From positions 9,301 through 73,300 of the forward strand of contig JBDRPD010000060.1 of NCBI GenBank assembly GCA_043827405.1: a stretch of DNA of 64,000 nucleotides, written 5' to 3'. Made by a program: the position numbers and the translations under genes. The notes beneath the pieces are model-generated. The model had not been told where the DNA came from. It searched no databases and saw nothing but the letters and a program-made list of their open reading frames with translations. This DNA comes from Elusimicrobiota bacterium (GTDB lineage Bacteria; Elusimicrobiota; Elusimicrobia; UBA1565). Positions within the stretch are counted from its first letter, which is position 1; the number at the start of each line of letters is the position of its first letter. Below, piece by piece: positions 5,818 to 34,733 of this stretch.

Positions 5818-6006
5818 TTATTTCATCGGCGGGATGCCGAGCGCCTTACAGATCTTGCGCGCGGCGAAATCGGCAACCTCGGGGTGGCGAGTTACCGGCG
5901 TTTCGACCTCGGTCTTGGAATTGACGTAAATCGAGTACTTGCCGCCTTCGCGGTCGAGCTCGCAGCCGTGCTTGTTGAGATGTTTTAACAGGTCTCGCAG
6001 TTTCAT
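5818..6006 (-). CDS. hicA: HicA-family (dsRBD-fold) toxin-like protein, orphan
   Basis: MK.RDL.KHL.KHGC...REGG...IY.N......VTRH.E..DF.ARKICK.LGIP pattern; SD GAGGAGG upstream. Confidence 0.85.
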   Translation of the reverse strand: MKLRDLLKHLNKHGCELDREGGKYSIYVNSKTEVETPVTRHPEVADFAARKICKALGIPPMK

Positions 6007-6033: not shown

Positions 6034-6810
6034 TTAAAATCCAAGAACCAACTCGATCGGGCAGTGATCGGACCCCATGATCCCGTCGTGAATCGCCGCG
6101 CTCTGCAGGCGGCGCTTGAGCGGCGCGGAAACGAAGAAGTAATCGATGCGCCAGCCGACGTTGCGCTCGCGCGCGCGGCTCTTCATGTCCCACCAGGTAT
6201 AGCGATCCGGAGCTTCCTCGAAATGCCGGAAACTGTCGATGAACCCGGCCGCCAGCAGGCGGTCGATCCAGGCCCGCTCCTCCGGCAGAAAACCCGAGGA
6301 CTTGGCGTTCTCCTTCGGCCGCGCCAGGTCGATCTCCCGGTGCGCGGTATTGACGTCGCCGCAGACGACGATATTCCGACGTCCCCCGTCTTGGTACGTC
6401 TGCAGCGTCTCGAGAAAGGCGTCGTAGAACCGCAGCTTGTACTGCAGCCGTTCCGGCCCGGACGTGCCGTTGGGGAAGTAGACATTAAACAGCGAAAACT
6501 CCGGATAGTGATGAATTAGGACGCGTCCCTCACGGTCGAACTCAACTCGGCCCAGGCCGCGCTCGATCTTCTTCGGCTTGGGCCGGCTATAGGTCGAAAC
6601 GCCGCTGTAGCCCTTGCGCTCCGCCCAGCAAAACTCGGCGCCGTAGCCCGGGACCTCCAACAGCTCGGCCGTAAGCTGAGACGGCATCGCCTTGGTCTCC
6701 TGCAGACAGAGAATGTCCGGAGCCTCCGCCTTCAGCCAGGGGACAAGTCCCTTGCGCGCCGCGGCACGGATGCCGTTGACGTTCCAGGAAAGAAGGCGGT
6801 ACTCCTTCAC
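6034..6810 (-). CDS. xth: Exodeoxyribonuclease III
   Basis: SWNVNGIRA, LQETK, GYSGV, EGR, YFPNG, GDVNTAH, GWRIDY, SDHCP. GTG start overlaps the upstream TGA. Confidence 0.96.
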   Translation of the reverse strand: MKEYRLLSWNVNGIRAAARKGLVPWLKAEAPDILCLQETKAMPSQLTAELLEVPGYGAEFCWAERKGYSGVSTYSRPKPKKIERGLGRVEFDREGRVLIHHYPEFSLFNVYFPNGTSGPERLQYKLRFYDAFLETLQTYQDGGRRNIVVCGDVNTAHREIDLARPKENAKSSGFLPEERAWIDRLLAAGFIDSFRHFEEAPDRYTWWDMKSRARERNVGWRIDYFFVSAPLKRRLQSAAIHDGIMGSDHCPIELVLGF

Positions 6811-7277
6811 TCCTCTGCTTCCGCGGCGGCGGCGCCGGAGCGGCGGACCAGACTGCGCGCCGTGACCTCGACGCACAGTCGCTTGTAGATGCCGAGTATG
6901 CTGGTGGTGTGCTCGTCCACCCGGACGTCGTAAAGCCCGATAACATCCGGATGCTCGCGGCGGATATTCTCCACCGCCCGGCGGTAGCCGCCGTCGCCCA
7001 CGGCGCCCGAGATGCTCTGCGAACGCAGCGACGCCGAAATGGGAATCGACAGCCCATGCTGGCAGCTTTTGCCGAAAACCTCGGCGGCCGGCACCGCGTC
7101 CGGCGGCAGTTCGCGGCGCGTCATCAGCACCGAGGACAGCGGCCCCTGCGAGTTGTAAAAGACGATAAATCCCCCCATCCGGATAAGGCCCGGCCGCGCC
7201 TGGTAGCTTTCACGATCGGCCCGCGCCGAAGGCGCGGCACAGAGCAGCGTCAGGAGAAGGACCGCCGCGCTTCTCAC
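6807..7277 (-). CDS. TRL-like family secreted protein
   Basis: Signal peptide; G.SC...GDGGY..A......LYDV.VD....SILGIY...C.EV pattern shared with the neighbouring paralog. GTGA overlap at the start. Confidence 0.7.
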   Translation of the reverse strand: MRSAAVLLLTLLCAAPSARADRESYQARPGLIRMGGFIVFYNSQGPLSSVLMTRRELPPDAVPAAEVFGKSCQHGLSIPISASLRSQSISGAVGDGGYRRAVENIRREHPDVIGLYDVRVDEHTTSILGIYKRLCVEVTARSLVRRSGAAAAEAEE

Positions 7278-7618
7278 GAACGGCCGACCCGTCCCGTGAC
7301 CACGGTACACATGCGGGAATAGATGCCGAACAGCACCGACTTCACCTTGACGTCGCTCTGCACATCATAGAGAACGGCGCCCGGATCGTCTTGCAGCGCG
7401 TCGCCGACCGCCGCCGCGTAGCCCGCGTCGCCCCAGGCGAACATCCAGAGCGCCGCCTGGTAGCAGGCGGTCCCGGAAACCCGCGCATCCGAGTGACTCG
7501 CCTTCACGTCGGAAGGCGTGGCCGACCGGTAGGCCCGCGGACCATGGATGTTGGTGTAGAGGCAGCCGCTCGACAGCACCGCCGACAGAACGACGACAAT
7601 AATCGGTATTCGTTTCAT
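7274..7618 (-). CDS. TRL-like family lipoprotein
   Basis: Lipobox-like LSSGC; CLYTNI..P...G.AC......FAWGDAG...A.......YDV..D....SVLFGIY...CT.VTG. Confidence 0.78.
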   Translation of the reverse strand: MKRIPIIVVVLSAVLSSGCLYTNIHGPRAYRSATPSDVKASHSDARVSGTACYQAALWMFAWGDAGYAAAVGDALQDDPGAVLYDVQSDVKVKSVLFGIYSRMCTVVTGRVGRS

Positions 7619-7679: not shown

Positions 7680-8594
7680 ATGAGCGACGCGGTTTTCCTG
7701 GACGGCGTCACCAAAAGCTTCGACGGGCATACCGCCGTCGAAGATCTTAATCTGCGCGTACCCGAAGGCTCGGTCTACGGCTTCATCGGCCCCAACGGCT
7801 CCGGCAAGACCACCACCCTGCGCATCATCATGCATATCCTGCTGGCCGACCGGGGCACGGTCGAGGTCCTGGGCCGCCCCAGCGTACGAGCGGCCAACGA
7901 CGCGGTCGGCTACCTGCCCGAAGAGCGCGGACTTTACCGAAAAATGAGCGTGAACAGAGTACTGCGCTACTTCGCGGCGCTCAAGGGCATGCCGCCGGTT
8001 CACGCGCGGACGGAGATCAAACGCTGGCTTAAGCGCATGGACCTCGCGGAATGGGGCGGCCGGAGCGTGGAATCCCTATCCAAGGGCATGTCCCAGAAGC
8101 TGCAGTTCATCGCCGCCGTAATTTCGCGGCCGCGGCTGGTGCTCCTCGACGAGCCCTTTTCGGGGCTCGACCCCATCAACCTGGAGGTGCTGCGCGAGGC
8201 CGTCCTCGAGCTGCGCGCCCAAGGCACTACCGTGATCCTGTCCACGCACGACATGACCCTCGCCGAGGAGATGTGCGACTTCATCTGCATGATCTTCCGG
8301 GGCGGCAAGGTGCTCGACGGTACGCTCGACGCCATCAAGGATCGTTACGGCACGGACACGGTTCGCCTGCGCCTGGAGGGCGGCGGCTCCCACCTTAAGG
8401 GCTTTCCCGGCCTGGAGTCGATACGGGACCTCGGACGCTTCCAGGAAGTACGGCTCACGACCGATCCCCAGGAGCTATTGACGCACTTGGCGTCGCGAAC
8501 CAAGGTGCGCCATTTCGAGGTGGTGCGTCCGTCCCTCAAAGACATCTTTATCCGCATCGCGGGCATCACGGACGGCGAGGACGGTCATGCGTAG
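7680..8594 (+). CDS. ABC transporter ATP-binding protein (NatA/YhaQ-like)
   Basis: Walker A GPNGSGKT, LSKGMSQK signature, LLDEPFSGLDP, STH. Confidence 0.93.
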   Translation: MSDAVFLDGVTKSFDGHTAVEDLNLRVPEGSVYGFIGPNGSGKTTTLRIIMHILLADRGTVEVLGRPSVRAANDAVGYLPEERGLYRKMSVNRVLRYFAALKGMPPVHARTEIKRWLKRMDLAEWGGRSVESLSKGMSQKLQFIAAVISRPRLVLLDEPFSGLDPINLEVLREAVLELRAQGTTVILSTHDMTLAEEMCDFICMIFRGGKVLDGTLDAIKDRYGTDTVRLRLEGGGSHLKGFPGLESIRDLGRFQEVRLTTDPQELLTHLASRTKVRHFEVVRPSLKDIFIRIAGITDGEDGHA

Positions 8595-9852
8595 GATCTG
8601 GGCCGTCGCCGCGACCGAATTCATCAACACCCTGTTCTCCAAGGGCTTTCTGCTCGCGGTTACACTAACGCCCATGATCGTCGGCGCTTCGCTGCTGGCA
8701 CAGAAATACCTCCGCGAGCATGCGAGCGCCGACCAATGGCGCTTCGCGATCATAGACCCGTCCGGCCGGCTGGCCCCCGCCATCATGGAAAGAGCGCGGC
8801 AACGCAACGCCGAGAAAGGCTTCCGGGAAGTCGACGGGAAGCGGCGTCAGGTCAAGACCTTGTTCGCCCCCTACCGGGCGGACTCGGCCGCCGGGCTCGC
8901 GGAAAAAATCCGCCGCGAGGAGCTCTTCGCCTACGTGCTCATCGCCCCCGACATCCTTGAACGCGAAACCGCGGACGCGCTGGTCTATCACACCGGCACC
9001 CCGACCAATATTACCCTGCCGCTGTGGCTCGAGCAGACGATGAATGAAGAACTGCGGCGCCTGCGCGTGGACGCGGCCGCGGTGGATCAGAACCTTTTTA
9101 AAAGCCTGATCCGTTTCGTCCCCATGGCGCGCAAAGACATCCACCGCGCCGGCGGCCCGAGCATCCACCTGGGCGCGACCTTCGGCGTTCCGGCGGCGGC
9201 GATGTTCCTCCTCTTCATCCTGGTCTTTATCAGCGCGCCGATGCTGCTGCACAGCATCCTGGAAGAAAAGCAGCAGCGCATCTGGGAGGTGCTGGTCTCC
9301 TCGGTGAGCCCGTTCGATCTCCTCCTGGGCAAACTGCTGGGCGCGGTCATGGTCTCCATGGTGCTGTCGGTCTTCTACCTGGGGGGCGCGGCCTTGTTCG
9401 CGCACCTGTTCGGCATCGCCCACGCCGTGCCGGCCTCGCTCTACGCCTGGTTTCTGTTCTACCAGCTCTTGGCCATGCTCATCTACGGATCGATGTTCTC
9501 CGCCATCGGCGCCGCCTGCTCCGAAATCCGCGACGCCCAAAGCCTGATGATGCCGGCGATGCTGCTGATCGTCCTGCCGATGTTCGGCTGGGTAACCATC
9601 CTGCGCGCGCCGACCAGCGCCTTCGCCAGCGCGCTGTCCCTGTTTCCGCCGGCGACGCCGATGCTGATGCTGCTGCGCATCGCGCTCCCCCCCGGACCCG
9701 CCGCCTGGGAGATCGCGCTGAGCATTCTCCTGACCTCGGCCTTCTCGCTGGCCTGCATCTGGGTCGCGGGCAAGATCTTCCGCGTCGGCATCCTGGCGCA
9801 AGGTCAGTCGCCGACCATCGGCCGGCTGATCTCCTGGATATCCACCCAATAA
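8587..9852 (+). CDS. ABC-2 type permease (NatB/YhaP-like)
   Basis: One N-terminal TM, an extracytoplasmic domain, EEKQQRIWEVLVSSV...LLGKLLG motif and several C-terminal TMs. Confidence 0.9.
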   Translation: MRRIWAVAATEFINTLFSKGFLLAVTLTPMIVGASLLAQKYLREHASADQWRFAIIDPSGRLAPAIMERARQRNAEKGFREVDGKRRQVKTLFAPYRADSAAGLAEKIRREELFAYVLIAPDILERETADALVYHTGTPTNITLPLWLEQTMNEELRRLRVDAAAVDQNLFKSLIRFVPMARKDIHRAGGPSIHLGATFGVPAAAMFLLFILVFISAPMLLHSILEEKQQRIWEVLVSSVSPFDLLLGKLLGAVMVSMVLSVFYLGGAALFAHLFGIAHAVPASLYAWFLFYQLLAMLIYGSMFSAIGAACSEIRDAQSLMMPAMLLIVLPMFGWVTILRAPTSAFASALSLFPPATPMLMLLRIALPPGPAAWEIALSILLTSAFSLACIWVAGKIFRVGILAQGQSPTIGRLISWISTQ

Positions 9853-9882
9853 AAAACGCGGCCGCGTCATCTGCGGCCGCGT
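9851..9882 (-). terminator. Intrinsic terminator of the histone gene
   Basis: ACGCGGCCGC (9856-9865) / GCGGCCGCGT (9873-9882) stem; A6 at 9851-9856 gives a U-tract on the minus strand. Confidence 0.8.
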
Positions 9883-9907
9883 CATTTAGCTTCTCGTCAG
9901 GAACCGA

Positions 9908-10102
9908 TCAGCCGATGCAGAAGTCGTGTCCCCGCACGGTCTTGCGGCCGTTGGCCTTCGCGCGCTTGGTCGCCTGATCCACGTACCAGTACACCATCTC
10001 GTTGAGACCCTCGAGCGCGTCACCGGCGGTATTGCAGTTGGCGGCCTTGATCGCGGCCTTAACCTTGCTGCCTACGAGCAGAATTTCCTTCTTCTTAGCC
10101 AT
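9908..10102 (-). CDS. Bacterial histone-fold protein (64 aa; Leptospira HLp / Bdellovibrio Bd0055-like)
   Basis: LLVGSKVKAAIK...NTAGDALEGLNE...KRAKANGRKTVRGHDF with the histone RKTV-x-x-x-D motif. SD AAAGGAGG lies 9 nt before ATG 10102. Confidence 0.9.
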   Translation of the reverse strand: MAKKKEILLVGSKVKAAIKAANCNTAGDALEGLNEMVYWYVDQATKRAKANGRKTVRGHDFCIG

Positions 10103-10137
10103 TGGGTACATCCTCCTTTAAATTTGGCAACCGGGCC

Positions 10138-10143
10138 ATTATA
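10138..10143 (-). promoter_or_regulatory. -10 element (TATAAT) of the histone gene promoter
   Basis: Perfect TATAAT on the minus strand followed by GC-rich GGCCCGG, about 35 nt upstream of the start codon. Confidence 0.65.
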
Positions 10144-10174
10144 GCGCATTCCTCTTCCCTGAACGCAAGCCCGC

Positions 10175-13081
10175 TCAATAGGGGAATAGATCGTCGACCT
10201 TCTTTTCCACCAGCTCGCCCAGCTTTTTCAGTTCCTCAAGATCGACCCGTTCGCGGCTGCCAAGGATGTAATAGGTCAGCGGGACATCGCTAAAGCGCGC
10301 GGCGAAGCGGCTGAGATCCGCCAGCGTATAGGCCTGCGCCCGCTCCATACGCCGCGGGCGGGGATCGAAGACGAGGCCGTGGTCCCGCCAGCTCATAACG
10401 GTCTGGGGCACCGCCCGGAACTTGACGGGATTGGTGCGATACTCCTCCACGATTGATTTCTGCGCCTCCGTGAAGCGTTCCTCCGATGCGGGAAAGTCGC
10501 GCAGCAGCTGCGCCAGCAGGACGGTGGCGCCGACCGTCTTGTCGGCCTGGGTGCCGAGACGGCCGAGCAGCCGGTTCTCATCGCCTTCACGCGCTCCGTA
10601 AACGTAGCCGCCCCAGGCCGAATAGGCGAGCGCGCGGGCCTCGCGCACTTCCTGGAACACGACCGAGCTCATCCCGCCGCCCATATACATCCGGTAGAAG
10701 GCGTAGTCGACGAACTCCTCCGCATTGAAGACCGTATCCGCCGCGTACATCCCGATCTGCGACTGCACCATGTCCCGGTGGACAAAAACGACTTTCGGCC
10801 GCTCGGTCCGCAGGTACTTTCGCGGCGTCCACGGCGGCGCGGGCTGATACGTACGGTCCGGCACCTGCAGGCTCTTGAGGACGCCCTGCGCCCGGCGCAC
10901 CCCCACATAGCCTACGTAGCGCCCATAATCAAAGACCGAGCCGAGCACTTCCACCAGCTCTTCGCGCGTCAGCCGGCCGAGAGCCTCGTCGGAGAGCTCG
11001 CTGAGCACCTCGCTGTCCTCCCCCCGCTGCGCGAACTCCGAGAGCGCGGTGGCGAGATATCGCGGGTCGACCTTATTATCCTTATGCTCGCCGGCCTTGA
11101 TCTCGACCATTTTGGCCAAGGTCCCCGCGGCGATATTGGGCTGCGCGAAGCGCAGGCGCATGAGCCGCAGCGCCTCGTCGTAGTGCTCCTCCAGGCCGCT
11201 CAAGACGATGAGCGACGTATCCTGGCCGCAATGCGTCGCGAACGTCAAGCCGCGGCGAAACAGCTCCTTCTTGAACTCCTCGGCCGGCATATCCCCGGCG
11301 CCCGCCAAATCCCACAACGACAGCGCCGCGCACAGCCGCGGCTCGTGCCGGCGTCCGCGGTAGAAGCGGAAACGGATTTCAAAAAGATCATTGACGGGGT
11401 TGTTCGCGTGAAACAGCTTGCCGAACGGCCGCGATATGATCTTATAGTCCTTGCCCGCCCGCAGCCATTTGGGCTCAATCTCGCCGGCGGGTGTGGCGAG
11501 GATCTCGCGCAGAAAGGCCGACTCGCGGGAGGCGTCGAGCTGGATCTTGGTAAAATCCGGCTTCTCGATGCCCGGGATTTCCGCCTTACCCTTCTCGCGA
11601 TAAGCCACGACGCGCCCGCCGCGCAGGTACTCCTTGGCGACACGGATCACGTCCTCCTTGGTTACCTTGCGAATGCGGTCGAGCCGGTCTACTTCGTCGG
11701 GCCATTCCCGGTAATGGATGAACGCCTCCATAATCCGGCTCACGCGGGAACGGTTTTCTTCGAGCTCCCGCTTGTAATGGATCTCGTAGTTGGTCACGAT
11801 GGCGCGCAGATCCTCGGCGGAGAAATCGCCCTCCTTGACGGCATCGGCCGTCTCCAGCAAGAGCTTTTCCGCTTCCTTAAGCGTCTGCCCCTGCTTGGGG
11901 ACAGCGTACATCTGCATGACCCCGGCCTCATTGAGCGCGTAGCCGAAAGCCCCCGCCTTTTTGACTTTCTGCGCCTGATTGAGGCGCAGATTGATCAAGC
12001 CGGACTCGCCGTTATCAAAGATCAGGCTCATAACCTGCAGGGCATCCGCGTCCGGATGATTGGCGCTAACCGTATGCCAGCCGATATAAAGCTTCTCCTC
12101 CGCCTCGTACTGCGCCTTAACATGCTTGGCGAAGCGCGGCTTCTTGATCTTGCGCTTCGACGGCTCCGGCAGGTCTTTCGGCTGCCAGCGCGCAAAGTAA
12201 TTCTGGATAATCTTAAGAGCTTCCTCGCGCTCGAAATCGCCCGACAGGATGATCGCCATATTATTGGGCACGTAGTAGCGGTGATAAAAGGCGTACATCT
12301 TGGCCATGGACGGATTCTTCAAATGCTCAATGGAGCCGAGCGTAGTACGTCCATAAGGATGCTCCTGGAAAAGCGCCCGGTCGAAGACTTCCCACAGGAT
12401 ACGATCCGGATCATCCTGTGAGCGGTTCTTTTCCTCATAAACGGTTTCAATCTCGGTTTGAAACAGCCGGAATACCGGCGCCGCGAAGCGATCCGACTCC
12501 AGCTTGGCCCAGGCTTCCAAGCGGTTTTTCGGCAGATCGCAGACATAAGCGGTGCGCTCGTTGCCGGTAAAGGCGTTGATGCTCCGGATGCCGAGTCTTT
12601 TATAAGCCTTGCTCAGTTCTTTGGTCGCCGCGTAGCGGCTGGCCTTCTGGTTTTCCTCGTCGATCGCCTTGTAGATCTCCGCGCGCTTGCCGGGGTCCTG
12701 CGCATCGAACAGGGTCTCGTAGAGCTCGGAGACCCGATCCAAATGGGGCTTCTCCTTGTCGTAGTCGATGGTTCCCAGTCGGCGGCTGCCCTTGAACATC
12801 ATATGTTCCAGGTAATGCGCCATGCCGGTGCTGTCCTCCGCATCCTGCGCCGAACCGGCGCGCACCGCAATCCACGCGGTAATGCGCGGCTCCAAGGGAT
12901 TCGGACTAAGGTAAACGGTCAACCCGTTCTTGAGCCGGTGCACCGTCACGTTCATCGGATCGCGCTCCAACGGGCGCTTAAGCTCCTGCGGCAGGCGGGA
13001 GGTCTTCTCCCAACGGGACCCCGCCGCCGCGCCGGCGCCCAACGACAACGCGCAGATCATCAACAGTATCCTTCGCAACAT
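10175..13081 (-). CDS. Secreted M16 (insulinase/pitrilysin-family) zinc protease
   Basis: Signal peptide, GMAHYLEHMMFKG (HxxEH), NAFT, E..TVYEE, C-terminal FQEVREARALAYS. Confidence 0.93.
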   Translation of the reverse strand: MLRRILLMICALSLGAGAAAGSRWEKTSRLPQELKRPLERDPMNVTVHRLKNGLTVYLSPNPLEPRITAWIAVRAGSAQDAEDSTGMAHYLEHMMFKGSRRLGTIDYDKEKPHLDRVSELYETLFDAQDPGKRAEIYKAIDEENQKASRYAATKELSKAYKRLGIRSINAFTGNERTAYVCDLPKNRLEAWAKLESDRFAAPVFRLFQTEIETVYEEKNRSQDDPDRILWEVFDRALFQEHPYGRTTLGSIEHLKNPSMAKMYAFYHRYYVPNNMAIILSGDFEREEALKIIQNYFARWQPKDLPEPSKRKIKKPRFAKHVKAQYEAEEKLYIGWHTVSANHPDADALQVMSLIFDNGESGLINLRLNQAQKVKKAGAFGYALNEAGVMQMYAVPKQGQTLKEAEKLLLETADAVKEGDFSAEDLRAIVTNYEIHYKRELEENRSRVSRIMEAFIHYREWPDEVDRLDRIRKVTKEDVIRVAKEYLRGGRVVAYREKGKAEIPGIEKPDFTKIQLDASRESAFLREILATPAGEIEPKWLRAGKDYKIISRPFGKLFHANNPVNDLFEIRFRFYRGRRHEPRLCAALSLWDLAGAGDMPAEEFKKELFRRGLTFATHCGQDTSLIVLSGLEEHYDEALRLMRLRFAQPNIAAGTLAKMVEIKAGEHKDNKVDPRYLATALSEFAQRGEDSEVLSELSDEALGRLTREELVEVLGSVFDYGRYVGYVGVRRAQGVLKSLQVPDRTYQPAPPWTPRKYLRTERPKVVFVHRDMVQSQIGMYAADTVFNAEEFVDYAFYRMYMGGGMSSVVFQEVREARALAYSAWGGYVYGAREGDENRLLGRLGTQADKTVGATVLLAQLLRDFPASEERFTEAQKSIVEEYRTNPVKFRAVPQTVMSWRDHGLVFDPRPRRMERAQAYTLADLSRFAARFSDVPLTYYILGSRERVDLEELKKLGELVEKKVDDLFPY

Positions 13082-32188: not shown

Positions 32189-33588
32189 CACAGCTCCCCC
32201 CATTCGTCGACGTCCGCGTTCTCGGCGTCACGGTAAAAACGCGCGGTGCAGATTCCTTTCAGCCCCTGGACGACCGCGAACAGCACTCCCGTCAGAACAG
32301 CCCACGACCATAGACCGCAGCCAAACAGCACGACCGCCAGCGGCGCCGTCCATTGAACCGGCTGACCCCGGGCAATCAGCGAACAGAAAAAAGCCAGGAC
32401 CGGCGCCGCGCATAAAAGCGCGAAGCGCAGATCAAACACTCCCAATCCCAAATGCGTGCGTTCCGCTTGCGCCGTCCCCAGCAAGTCGACGCTTCTCCTC
32501 AATGCCGGCACTACGCCCATATCCTCACAGGCCATGACGCTGGCAGCGAGATAGCCGCTGCGGAAAACTCCGCTCTCGAAGATGCGCTGAAACAGGCCCC
32601 CGGCTCGCCCCGCCCTGCCGCGCCGCAGGATGAGCCGGTAGACAAGACCCAGCGGCAGGAGCGCCGCGAACACAACAAACCATAACGCTATGACGCCCGG
32701 CACGAACGGCAGGCAAGCCGCCGCCGCATTGGCCTCCGGACGCCGCGCCAATGCCGCGGCGAGAAGCGCTCCCGGCAGGAAGGAACAGATGCCCACCACG
32801 AAGTAGGCTTTCACCCAGCCGCCGGAGACGTCGTAGAGCGGGCGGCCGAGCGTCAACGCGAGAATATCAAAGCCGTAGCCCGCGATGACCGCCGCACAGC
32901 ACAGCCACACAAACACGGTGACGGAAAAAAACAGTTTATGCCGCAGCAAAACTTCCCACGCGGCGCGCGCCCGCGCGCCCGCGCCGCCCTGCAGGTCAAA
33001 AACCGGCAGTCCCAGGACCGCCCAAGCCGTCACGACCGCCGGCAGGATTAAGAGCCATAGCCAGCGCGCCGTTCGTGCGAGGCGCCCGAAGAGCTTCGTT
33101 CGCGCCATTTTCACTCCGGAGGGCGGCGACGGAGGGCGGCTCGCCGGATTATGCTGTCGCTGCAAAGAGCGCTTGAGCGTCTCCGCCCCCTCCTTCACCG
33201 CCGGACTCGGCGCGAGAATGCCTCTTGCGGCCAAAGCATCCAGCCGGGCGAGCAGCTGATCAGGGACATCGCGCTGCCCCCAGGAGAAATAATCCGCCAG
33301 CGCGCGCATGGCGGGCGCCCGCACCCCGCCGTTCTCTTCCTCCTGGGCAACCGCGATCAAAGCGTCCAGCGCCGCGCCGTCGTCATGCTCGTTAAGCCGC
33401 ACGCCCAGGGCATGCACGATCCAGAAGCGCTGATCCGAATCCCGCGTCCGGCTGTAGAGCTCGGCGAGCTTCGCGGAAGCCGCGACCGATGGGTCGTCCT
33501 CCAGGCGGCGCAGCCCGTCAGCGCGCGCCGCGGGAACAGCGCTCAGCCAGAAGCCCAGGCCGAACAGCAGAAAGACGAGTCGGCTCAC
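32188..33588 (-). CDS. Hypothetical polytopic membrane protein with an N-terminal HEAT-like exported domain
   Basis: Signal peptide, helical-repeat-like segment, about 7 hydrophobic segments; translationally coupled on both sides. Confidence 0.75.
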   Translation of the reverse strand: MSRLVFLLFGLGFWLSAVPAARADGLRRLEDDPSVAASAKLAELYSRTRDSDQRFWIVHALGVRLNEHDDGAALDALIAVAQEEENGGVRAPAMRALADYFSWGQRDVPDQLLARLDALAARGILAPSPAVKEGAETLKRSLQRQHNPASRPPSPPSGVKMARTKLFGRLARTARWLWLLILPAVVTAWAVLGLPVFDLQGGAGARARAAWEVLLRHKLFFSVTVFVWLCCAAVIAGYGFDILALTLGRPLYDVSGGWVKAYFVVGICSFLPGALLAAALARRPEANAAAACLPFVPGVIALWFVVFAALLPLGLVYRLILRRGRAGRAGGLFQRIFESGVFRSGYLAASVMACEDMGVVPALRRSVDLLGTAQAERTHLGLGVFDLRFALLCAAPVLAFFCSLIARGQPVQWTAPLAVVLFGCGLWSWAVLTGVLFAVVQGLKGICTARFYRDAENADVDEWGEL

Positions 33589-34733
33589 ATCCCCCCTTGA
33601 ATCGCGTCCAACAGCAGCTCGTTAGTTGAGTATTTCCGCACCATCTCCACCACCACCTTGGTGGCTTCCAGGTCTGAAAGGCTCGCAAGTTTGCGCCGCA
33701 GCTTCCATACGCCGTCGAGCGTCTTCTCCGGCAGGAGCAGTTCTTCCCTGCGCGTTCCGGAACTTTTGACGTGTATCGCAGGAAACACCCGCTGCTCCGC
33801 CGCCGGCCGCGAGAGCACCAGCTCCATATTGCCGGTCCCTTTAAACTCCTGAAAGATCACTTCATCCATGCGGCTGTTGGTATCGATAAGGATCGTGGCC
33901 ATAATCGTAATCGATCCCCCCTCCTCCAGCTTGCGCGCACAGCCGAAAAAGCGCCGGGGCAGCTCCATCGCGCGCGAATCCAAACCGCCGGACAGCGTGC
34001 GCGTGCCTCCCGTCGCGGTATTATGCGCCCGCGCCAGACGCGTAAGCGAATCCAGCACAATAAGGACATCAACCCCGGCGACGGACTGTTCGACCGCCAG
34101 CTGATATACTTTATCCGCGGTGCTGATATGGGATTCGAAACCCTGGTCGCTTGAGGACGCGTGCACTTCGGCCTGGACCGCGCGACGGAAGTCGGTGACC
34201 TCTTCCGGCCGCTCATCGACCAGCAGGCAGTAGACTTTCATCTTCGGCTCGGCGCCGGTGACGGCGTTGCATATCTCTTTGAGGATCGTCGTCTTGCCGG
34301 CCTTGGGCGGCGATACGATCAATCCGCGCTGCCCCTTGCCCACCGGGGAGAGCAGATCCACCACCCTCATCGCCGCAGACGTCGGGCCGTTTTCCATGCG
34401 AATCCACTCAAACGGCGCGACCGGCGTCCTATCCAAAAACTGCTTCTCTGCCTCCGTGCGCTTCAGCGGCGCGATCTGCCGGTCGCCGCGGCCTTGGCCG
34501 CCGCGCCGCGGATATCCGCCGCGCCCGCCGTACCCGCCGCGCCCGCCCGAGCCACCGCGCCCGCCGGAACCACCGCGCCCGCCCTGGCCGCCATGTCCGC
34601 CCTGACCGCCTGGACCGCCGCGCTCCCGCTGTCCTCCGCCGCCTTGTCCGGAAAGTGATCCCTGGTCGTTATTTCCGTGGGCCGGTCCTCGGGAACCCGA
34701 GCGGCGCCGACGGCGCCTTGGTTTATTTCTCAT
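33585..34733 (-). CDS. rho: Transcription termination factor Rho, atypical (no OB-fold; GGR-rich N-terminus)
   Basis: [62 protein letters not shown]. Confidence 0.93.
34513..34620 (-). repeat. Gly-Gly-X coding repeat ([15 protein letters not shown]) in the Rho N-terminus
   Basis: Imperfect 9/18-nt repeats encoding [36 protein letters not shown]. Confidence 0.85.

What the first reader, a model, noticed from the sequence alone, without database searches (positions are those of the whole stretch)
9851..10143. Stand-alone bacterial histone with promoter, strong SD and terminator
Seen in sequence: a 64-aa ORF (MAKKKEILLVGSKVKAAIKAANCNTAGDALEGLNEMVYWYVDQATKRAKANGRKTVRGHDFCIG) with a perfect TATAAT, an AAAGGAGG SD and its own intrinsic terminator, so it looks built for high monocistronic expression. 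Established knowledge: SKVK..IK, GDA..GLNE and the C-terminal RKTVxxxD with a short alpha3 are hallmarks of bacterial histones (Bdellovibrio Bd0055, Leptospira HLp). From memory it resembles the Leptospira face-to-face tetramer type most. Inference: histone-based chromatin in this lineage. The two Cys residues could allow redox control.
Basis: partly seen in the sequence, partly recalled or inferred. Interest (0 to 1): 0.75.

Follow-up and report, generated by a model that had tools for sequence, protein, structure and literature searches.

The report
Face-to-face bacterial histone gene, Elusimicrobiota
This small gene encodes a real bacterial histone of the already described DNA-wrapping 'face-to-face' type, here as an extra second histone in an uncultured bacterium, so it is a correct call and a useful example but not a new kind of protein.

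Summary
Observation confirmed: 64-aa ORF at 10102-9908 (minus strand), with TATAAT, a Shine-Dalgarno site and an 11-bp terminator. It is a face-to-face (FtF) alpha3 histone: Leptospira HLp is the best match by sequence (E 5e-13) and fold (rmsd 0.7 A, 52% identity). The FtF residues R47, N51, R53, T55, D60 and 8 of 10 HLp DNA-contact residues are kept. A four-copy model puts them at a dimer-dimer interface (0.87, best control 0.01; possibly remembered from solved structures). The host is Elusimicrobiota, where orthologues were catalogued in 2023; this scan has also found FtF histones on other DNA.

Corrections: no canonical -35 and no terminator upstream, so 'monocistronic' is unproven; high expression is untested; Cys redox control is unsupported.

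Additions: the genome also encodes an HBb-like dimer histone and an HU/IHF protein. The FtF type is patchy (14 of 40 relatives, against 34 of 40 for the dimer type), so it looks accessory, unlike in Leptospira. All 120 closest homologues run 2-4 residues past the point where HLp and HTkC end, which a 2025 preprint predicts would break the tetramer latch. That is the one open, testable point. New member of a known kind.

The parts
9908..10102 (-). CDS of the 64-aa face-to-face alpha3 histone (P0001)
10112..10119 (-). Shine-Dalgarno AAAGGAGG, 9 nt upstream of the ATG
   Evidence: AGGAGG complementary to the 16S 3' end found in the genome
10138..10143 (-). -10 box TATAAT (predicted promoter; start site not measured)
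   Evidence: similar boxes upstream of orthologues
10163..10168 (-). weak -35 candidate TTGCGT (3/6, 19-nt spacer)
   Evidence: read; below the threshold of the promoter scan
9851..9883 (-). intrinsic terminator: 11-pair GC-rich stem (9883-9855) and U6 tail (9856-9851), overlapping the stop codon of the convergent ABC permease
10175..13081 (-). context: upstream M16-family peptidase gene, 72 bp away, no terminator found between; same neighbour in 3 of 7 same-family orthologue loci
8587..9852 (+). context: convergent ABC-2 permease gene ending in the terminator's A-tract

Best explanation
A chromosomal, intact FtF alpha3 histone of an uncultured Elusimicrobiota bacterium. Shown here (computationally): a histone fold with shortened alpha2 and a one-turn alpha3; handshake dimer contacts; a dimer-dimer contact through the end of alpha2, L2 and alpha3. 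Inferred from HLp and HTkC: two dimers close face to face into a ring held by R47/N51/R53. A band of basic and polar residues (S12, K13, K15, K19, T25, G27, K54, T55, R57) binds the DNA backbone without sequence preference and wraps about 60 bp, compacting the nucleoid locally. Inferred from distribution: it is an accessory second histone beside a more widely kept HBb-like dimer histone and an HU/IHF protein. It has its own promoter and probably also receives read-through from the upstream genes. The three extra C-terminal residues (C62-I63-G64) most likely fold into the dimer-dimer interface, with R47 re-anchored there, rather than abolishing the tetramer.
For: Sequence: HLp 9QT0 E 4.9e-13 against HBb 2e-5 and HTkC 8e-3. 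Fold: AlphaFold2 pLDDT 91, helices 11-20, 29-50, 58-61. Foldseek ranks 9QT0/9QT1 first (rmsd 0.7/0.6 A, 52-53% identity). VIA-align gives Z 8.8 for HLp, tied within 1 with HBb 8.2 and HTkC 8.0. Residues: R47, N51, T55, D60 in 120 of 120 close homologues, R53 in 119. These are the FtF signature of PMC11390915, whose R/N pair bacterial dimer histones lack. 8 of 10 HLp DNA-contact residues are identical, including all five main energy contributors. Four-copy model: 0.87 against best control 0.01, runs agree in at least 96% of contacts, pLDDT at least 89. The mark was reached by 20 of 30 solved pairs and 1 of 23 single chains in a two-copy calibration that holds only roughly here, and the pass may be from memory of 9QT0/9F2C. 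Residues 43, 46-47, 50-51, 57, 59-60, 62-64 form the second interface. Context: same contig as rpoA and the ribosomal protein operon; every RpoA hit whose name carries a taxon is Elusimicrobia/Elusimicrobiota. Distribution: FtF type in 14 of 40 relatives, dimer type in 34 of 40, both in 12 of the 14.
Against: No DNA binding, oligomer state or abundance was measured. The complex output lists contacts for one chain only, so closure of both interfaces (the ring) is not shown, and the score may be driven by the dimer interface. [quoted passage not shown] This protein extends three residues past the aligned end of HLp and HTkC. Pfam gives no significant match (only DUF6843, E 0.083) and NCBIfam none. 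'Accessory' rests on absence in draft genomes, 77-100% complete.
Confidence: 0.75

Rival explanations
1. FtF by descent, but the C-terminal extension removes the Arg-carboxylate latch, so it acts as a dimer (or a weak, DNA-induced tetramer) that bends DNA like HBb or the HTkC R45A mutant.
For: R45A makes HTkC a dimer, and the authors expect C-terminal extension to break the bridge. All 120 close homologues carry 2-4 residues after the final Asp-Phe (24, 85 and 11 with 2, 3 and 4). HBb, a dimer, is also extended.
Against: R47 and N51 are invariant in 120 of 120 extended homologues. Among distant single-motif representatives they are kept in 40 of 45 with 1-5 extra residues and 13 of 13 with more, which is hard to explain if the interface were lost. 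The model places residues 62-64 in the dimer-dimer interface with low expected error.
Confidence: 0.12
2. It is the principal, essential chromatin protein of this organism, as in Leptospira.
For: Perfect -10 box and strong SD. The L. interrogans FtF histone is abundant and essential (PMC10627809 and PMC12701072).
Against: Leptospira lacks other histones and HU; this genome has both. The FtF type was not found in several same-genus relatives that are at least 95% complete (G002, G010, G031, G035). It gave a strong hit in only 8 of 201 genomes of the phylum sample. No SMC gene was seen next to it.
Confidence: 0.15
3. The cysteines give redox or metal control, for example a disulfide, or a His59/Cys62 zinc site at the dimer-dimer interface that switches tetramer formation.
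For: C23 in 115 of 120 close homologues; H59 in 115, C62 in 69. Residues 59 and 62 lie in the modelled dimer-dimer interface.
Against: C23 is replaced by L, M, V, F in distant relatives (C in 71 of 184 domains) and packs in the dimer core. C62 swaps with M and I. The two Cys show no positive coupling (64 observed, about 66 expected). The cytoplasm is reducing (general knowledge). Cys-Cys distances could not be measured because no coordinates were returned.
Confidence: 0.06
4. It heterodimerises with the genome's second, dimer-type histone (P0280), giving a two-histone particle.
For: 12 of 14 relatives with the FtF type also have the dimer type. Both have an alpha3 histone sequence pattern.
Against: The dimer type is present in 34 of 40 relatives anyway, so co-occurrence is expected. 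The genes are on different contigs. The homo-oligomer model is confident. The hetero-pair was not modelled.
Confidence: 0.06
5. Spurious ORF, contaminant contig, or a histone-fold protein that does not bind DNA.
For: No family model matches it significantly.
Against: 1,008 homologues at E <= 0.001; invariant basic residues; contig carries the ribosomal operon; genome contamination 0.48%; shared neighbours in same-family relatives.
Confidence: 0.02

Closest known systems
HLp, FtF alpha3 histone of Leptospira perolatii (PDB 9QT0/9QT1/9QT2; PMC12701072)
   Same: 52% identity with a gap-free alignment, rmsd 0.7 A over 56 residues. HLp R49/N53/R55/D62/F63 = R47/N51/R53/D60/F61. 8 of 10 DNA-contact residues are identical, and 4 of 6 named tetramer-contact residues.
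   Different: Three extra C-terminal residues after the Phe that ends HLp. A13->G, T56->K, S52->A, T61->H. The host also has a dimer histone and HU/IHF. The gene is patchy among relatives and lies beside an M16 peptidase gene, not beside smc/map.
HTkC, archaeal FtF histone of Thermococcus kodakarensis (PDB 9F2C; PMC11390915; bioRxiv 10.64898/2025.12.06.692711)
   Same: rmsd 0.9-1.0 A, 33-34% identity. HTkC R45 aligns with R47. It also coexists with other histones in its host.
   Different: HTkC ends at the position of F61 and its R45 bridges to that terminal carboxylate; here the terminus is three residues further on.
HBb/Bd0055, bacterial dimer histone of Bdellovibrio bacteriovorus (PDB 8FVX, 8CMP, 9EZZ, 9F0E; PMC10627809)
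   Same: alpha3 histone fold, rmsd 1.2 A, 37% identity, SK motif, RKTV and RD clamp, short C-terminal extension.
   Different: HBb lacks the R/N tetramer pair that this protein has. The genome's other histone (P0280) is the HBb-like one.
Elusimicrobia histone-fold singlets in Table S1 of PMC10627809 (e.g. PCI39445.1, PIR15170.1, OGR90011.1)
   Same: Same clade: 62-64 aa, same C-terminal motif and extension. PCI39445.1 is identical at 48 of 64 positions (counted by eye).
   Different: Listed there as histone-fold proteins only. I saw no subtype or experiment for them in the passages read.

Membership tests
FtF alpha3 histones | Histone fold (three helices, two loops), no extra domain | tested here: met
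   pLDDT 91, helices 11-20, 29-50, 58-61; top fold matches HLp, HBb, HTkC; stop codon after residue 64
FtF alpha3 histones | alpha2 shortened and alpha3 truncated to 3-4 residues (alpha3 superfamily, PMC11390915) | tested here: met
   alpha3 = 4 residues; gap-free superposition on HLp, 56 of 56 residues, rmsd 0.7 A, against 2.3-3.1 A for archaeal nucleosomal histones
FtF alpha3 histones | Signature residues R48, N52, R54, T56, D61 of the FtF profile | tested here: met
   R47, N51, R53, T55, D60 present; 120, 120, 119, 120 and 120 of 120 homologues
FtF alpha3 histones | Conserved DNA-binding lysines on alpha1 and L1/L2 contacts | tested here: met
   S12, K13, K15, K19, T25, G27, T55, R57 identical to the HLp contacts; pI 9.64, charge +5.6
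FtF alpha3 histones | Predicted tetramer with dimer-dimer contact through the end of alpha2, L2 and alpha3 | tested here: met
   Score 0.87 against best control 0.01 (mark reached by 20 of 30 solved pairs and 1 of 23 single chains; runs agree at least 96%; pLDDT at least 89; may reflect memory of solved FtF structures); second interface 43, 46-47, 50-51, 57, 59-60, 62-64
FtF alpha3 histones | Both dimer-dimer interfaces engaged (closed torus) | tested here: inconclusive
   The output lists contacts of one chain only and gives no coordinates
FtF alpha3 histones | Tetramer in solution and about 60-bp DNA wrapping (shown for HLp and HTkC) | not testable with these tools
   Needs SEC-MALS, MNase, tethered-particle assays
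HLp/HTkC C-terminal latch (a feature of the two characterised members, not part of the published family definition) | Chain ends one residue after the RD-clamp Asp, so that the conserved Arg bridges to the terminal carboxylate | tested here: not met
   Three further residues here; 2-4 further residues in 120 of 120 close homologues; latch described
Bacterial dimer histones (HBb type) | Lack of R48 and N52; no confident multimer above the dimer | tested here: not met
   R47 and N51 present; confident second interface; the dimer-type rows form a separate branch, SH-aLRT 99 in a quick tree
DUF1931 pseudodimeric histones | Two folds in one chain, lacking DNA-binding residues | tested here: not met
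   Single 64-aa fold with basic residues; PF09123 finds no match in the genome
Archaeal nucleosomal histones (HMf type) | Long alpha2 and 10-residue alpha3 | tested here: not met
   Four-residue alpha3; TM-score 0.57-0.70, rmsd about 3 A; PF00808 finds no match in the genome
ZZ, phage, Rab-GTPase and IHF histones | Extra domain or structured tail, or an IHF gene in the same operon | tested here: not met
   No extra domain; the only HU/IHF match is on another contig

The most novel reading that the evidence does not exclude
This protein stands for a large C-terminally extended branch of bacterial FtF histones whose tetramer cannot use the Arg-terminal-carboxylate latch of HLp and HTkC. It would use a different, possibly tunable interface built on H59/C62-G64. 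In Elusimicrobiota this branch sits as an optional wrapping histone on top of a core bending histone and HU/IHF: a bacterium with two architecturally different histones, one of them switchable between dimer and ring.
Probability: 0.2. Interest if true: 0.55.

Novelty: new member of a known kind. Interest (0 to 1): 0.3.

Why it matters
Only two bacterial histones (HBb, HLp) have been characterised experimentally according to PMC12701072, so good further targets have some value. This one offers a direct test of a published prediction, that extending the FtF C-terminus breaks the tetramer, using a natural sequence from a branch in which all 120 closest homologues are extended yet keep the tetramer residues. 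It also gives a natural case of FtF histone, dimer-type histone and HU/IHF in one genome. As a discovery it is modest: the family, its structure and its presence in Elusimicrobia are in print, and the host is uncultured as far as these records show.

Tried and rejected
Family libraries: Pfam gave only DUF6843 at E 0.083, NCBIfam nothing at 1e-8, and PF00808 and PF09123 no match in the genome. These models do not cover this protein. Expression: no RNA holder was listed for 8600-11600; laying the three same-study RNA runs gave no cover of the gene and one 38-nt partial match elsewhere. This is no evidence either way. Codon adaptation was uninformative because ribosomal genes hardly differ from the genome. 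The 78 nt upstream of the gene have no significant fold (z 0.28), so neither a terminator nor a structured leader is supported. The terminator's 13-mer unit was checked as a possible dispersed repeat: 10 genome hits, 2 of them here and the other 8 single, so rejected. Cluster look-up gave no taxon names and flank identity to named loci was ambiguous; the lineage was taken from RpoA homologue names instead. Gene tree (98 rows, 71 columns): the careful search did not finish; the quick tree left 48 of 95 inner branches open. Elusimicrobiota FtF rows are interleaved with Myxococcota, Bdellovibrionota, Acidobacteriota and Planctomycetota rows, but test_one_clade was not run, so no transfer or donor is claimed. 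Rows left out of the tree: loci with no start found (L043, L079, L080, L088, L091), proteins under 55 aa from mis-picked starts (L020, L100, L101, L112, L113), duplicates, L092, and L039, L045, L051, L066, L069, L072, L086. 'Elusimicrob' had 0 hits in 3 readable supplements of PMC11390915 (file 2 unreadable; figures are not text), so its Supplementary Figs 6 and 8 may already show FtF histones in this phylum. A single-sequence fold of a natural doublet (P0121) was only moderately confident (pLDDT 66).

Full report
1. The observation. The minus strand from 10102 to 9908 encodes exactly the 64 residues reported. AAAGGAGG lies at 10119-10112, 9 nt before the ATG, and its AGGAGG pairs with the anti-SD at a 16S 3' end in the genome. 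TATAAT lies at 10143-10138; 516 of 200,000 random 55-nt genome windows hold it. A -10 box of 5/6 or better sits 20-70 nt upstream in 9 of 18 distinct FtF loci (own included) against 2.8% of control windows, and 4/6 or better in 16 of 18 against 9.4%. These controls include coding DNA and understate chance. No canonical -35 exists: the scan found no promoter, and the best candidate is TTGCGT with a 19-nt spacer. The terminator is an 11-pair stem with a U6 tail (z -2.93, 2 of 200 shuffles) that overlaps the stop codon of the convergent ABC permease. The gene is the last of a same-strand run: two genes I recognised as hemE-like and hemH-like from their translations (not scanned), a flavin oxidoreductase and an M16 peptidase. 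The last gap is 72 bp with no terminator or significant fold. So its own promoter is plausible, but a strictly monocistronic message is not shown.

2. What the protein is. Against solved structures the best sequence match is Leptospira HLp (9QT0, E 4.9e-13, no gaps), then HBb (2e-5) and HTkC (8e-3). AlphaFold2 with a 102-row alignment (102 of the 120 listed homologues) gives pLDDT 91 and helices 11-20, 29-50 and 58-61. Foldseek ranks HLp first (rmsd 0.6-0.7 A, 52-53% identity), then HBb and HTkC, with nucleosomal histones near 3 A. VIA-align over 48,161 chains gives Z 8.8, 8.2 and 8.0 for the same three, tied within 1, and 6.1 for the next. The subtype is therefore decided by residues. PMC11390915 defines FtF histones by a predicted tetramer and by R48, N52, R54, T56, D61; bacterial dimer histones lack R48 and N52. 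Here R47, N51, T55 and D60 are present in 120 of 120 close homologues and R53 in 119. Of ten HLp DNA-contact residues eight are identical, including all five main energy contributors. The four-copy model scores 0.87 against a best control of 0.01; runs agree in at least 96% of contacts and pLDDT is at least 89. The mark was reached by 20 of 30 solved pairs and 1 of 23 single chains in a two-copy calibration that applies only roughly, and the pass may come from memory of 9QT0 and 9F2C. Besides the broad dimer interface it shows a second interface of residues 43, 46-47, 50-51, 57, 59-60 and 62-64, the surface HLp uses. Whether both interfaces close into a ring cannot be read from the output.

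3. Host and distribution. The contig carries rpoA and the ribosomal protein operon, and every RpoA hit whose name carries a taxon is Elusimicrobia/Elusimicrobiota. The genome (98% complete, 0.5% contamination) holds a second histone, P0280 (59 aa, C8:46154-46330). It lacks the R/N pair, matches HBb best though only weakly ahead of HLp (E 4e-7 against 5e-6), and falls in a separate branch (SH-aLRT 99, quick tree). One HU/IHF-family gene is also present. Among 40 relatives of the same order the FtF type was found in 14 and the dimer type in 34; 12 of the 14 have both, and the other two are 77-80% complete. The FtF type varies within genera. In a phylum sample 43 of 201 genomes had any match and 8 of 201 a strong FtF match; none was found in 71 genomes of one family or 47 of another. 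These are samples of drafts, so 'not found' is all that can be said. Within the family, an M16 peptidase gene is upstream in 3 of 7 orthologue loci and an anthranilate synthase gene downstream in 4 of 7, with both in one. This suggests inheritance at an ancestral locus. Outside the family the neighbours differ from locus to locus, which fits a self-contained unit. No smc neighbour was seen within the 1.5-kb flanks, unlike Leptospira.

4. How it most likely works (inferred from HLp and HTkC). Handshake dimers join face to face into a ring. A continuous basic band binds the DNA backbone without sequence preference and wraps about 60 bp (PMC12701072). Because this host keeps a dimer histone and HU/IHF and many relatives lack the FtF gene, I read it as a supplementary compaction protein rather than the main one. 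One feature departs from both characterised FtF proteins. HLp and HTkC end at the position of F61. In HTkC the conserved Arg bridges to that terminal carboxylate, R45A gives dimers, and the authors expect C-terminal extension to disrupt the bridge. This protein has three more residues, and all 120 close homologues have 2-4. Yet R47 and N51 are invariant, they are kept in 53 of 58 extended distant representatives, and the model packs 62-64 into the interface. I therefore favour a re-anchored latch (overall confidence 0.75) over a dimer (0.12).

5. The cysteines. C23 is present in 115 of 120 close homologues but in 71 of 184 distant domains, where L, M, V and F replace it. HLp has F and HBb has M there, and it touches residues 45 and 56 of the dimer partner, so it looks like a core packing residue. 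C62 is present in 69 of 120 and swaps with M and I. The two co-occur 64 times against about 66 expected by independence. Redox or zinc control is not excluded but has little support (0.06).

6. Comparison with what is known. The family, the structure and the wrapping mode are published. PMC10627809 notes persistence of histones in Elusimicrobia, and its Table S1 lists members of this very clade, one identical at 48 of 64 positions. PMC11390915 names Elusimicrobiota for dimer and IHF histones and not among the phyla where FtF histones predominate; its supplementary figures could not be read and may show them. Three literature searches returned no paper devoted to Elusimicrobiota FtF histones or to the extended branch; the library omits most subscription journals. 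What I saw of each paper: PMC12701072, parts 1, 2 and 5 of 9 and searched passages; PMC11390915, parts 1-3 of 9, passages, and a search of 3 supplements; PMC10627809, passages and supplement rows (files 6, 7, 9 not searched); bioRxiv 10.64898/2025.12.06.692711, abstract and sections 5 and 9 (supplements closed); PMC13088155, passages only. Earlier notes of this scan report FtF and HBb-type histones in other genomes; they are unchecked and did not change my reading.

7. Verdict. A real, intact FtF histone gene: a new member of a known kind. Interest 0.3. The boldest reading left open is an extended FtF branch with a different or switchable tetramer latch, acting beside a second, bending histone (probability 0.2, interest 0.55 if true).

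Noticed in passing
L021:1489-1668 (-) = G000:C8:46151-46330: Second histone P0280, HBb-like dimer type with a one-residue longer L2 loop. It lies just downstream of a tRNA-Met gene (1707-1779); a tRNA-Met is upstream within about 1.1 kb in 6 of 6 dimer-type loci scanned. A Methyltransf_28 gene follows it.
   Followed up: partly
L021:1735-2847 (-): Phage-type integrase gene whose 3' end overlaps the tRNA-Met gene, suggesting an integrated element at this tRNA right upstream of the second histone.
   Followed up: no
proteins P0121-P0129, P0131-P0133, P0140 and others: Tandem FtF-like doublets: 34 of 150 representatives hold two histone domains, 21 with the FtF motif in both halves and basic residues kept. 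In the passages read, a 2026 review (PMC13088155) describes bacterial doublets only of the kind lacking DNA-binding residues. Hosts unknown; the single-sequence model of P0121 has pLDDT 66.
   Followed up: partly
proteins P0142, P0147: Histone doublets that begin with a hydrophobic, signal-peptide-like leader (seen by eye), odd for a DNA-binding protein.
   Followed up: no
window 9857-9884: The terminator stem is built from a direct repeat of a 13-mer at a 15-bp period, each copy holding the palindrome GCGGCCGC; not a dispersed repeat of the genome.
   Followed up: yes
L092:1480-1761 = G000:C10: The only HU/IHF-family match found in the genome. It is followed by a MerR-like ORF, an arrangement I recall for ihfA (not tested), so the genome may have an IHF-like protein and no separate HU.
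   Followed up: partly
window 5818-6006 (-): HicA-family ORF (E 8e-9) with no HicB seen beside it; its neighbours are an exonuclease III-like gene and a convergent 225-aa ORF without a family match.
   Followed up: no
window 6807-7618 (-): Two tandem TRL-like (PF13146) small proteins with leader-like N-termini.
   Followed up: no
window 33585-34733 (-): A 382-aa Rho-like protein whose match starts at about residue 92 and which resembles the short-form Rho model, below that model's cut-off.
   Followed up: no
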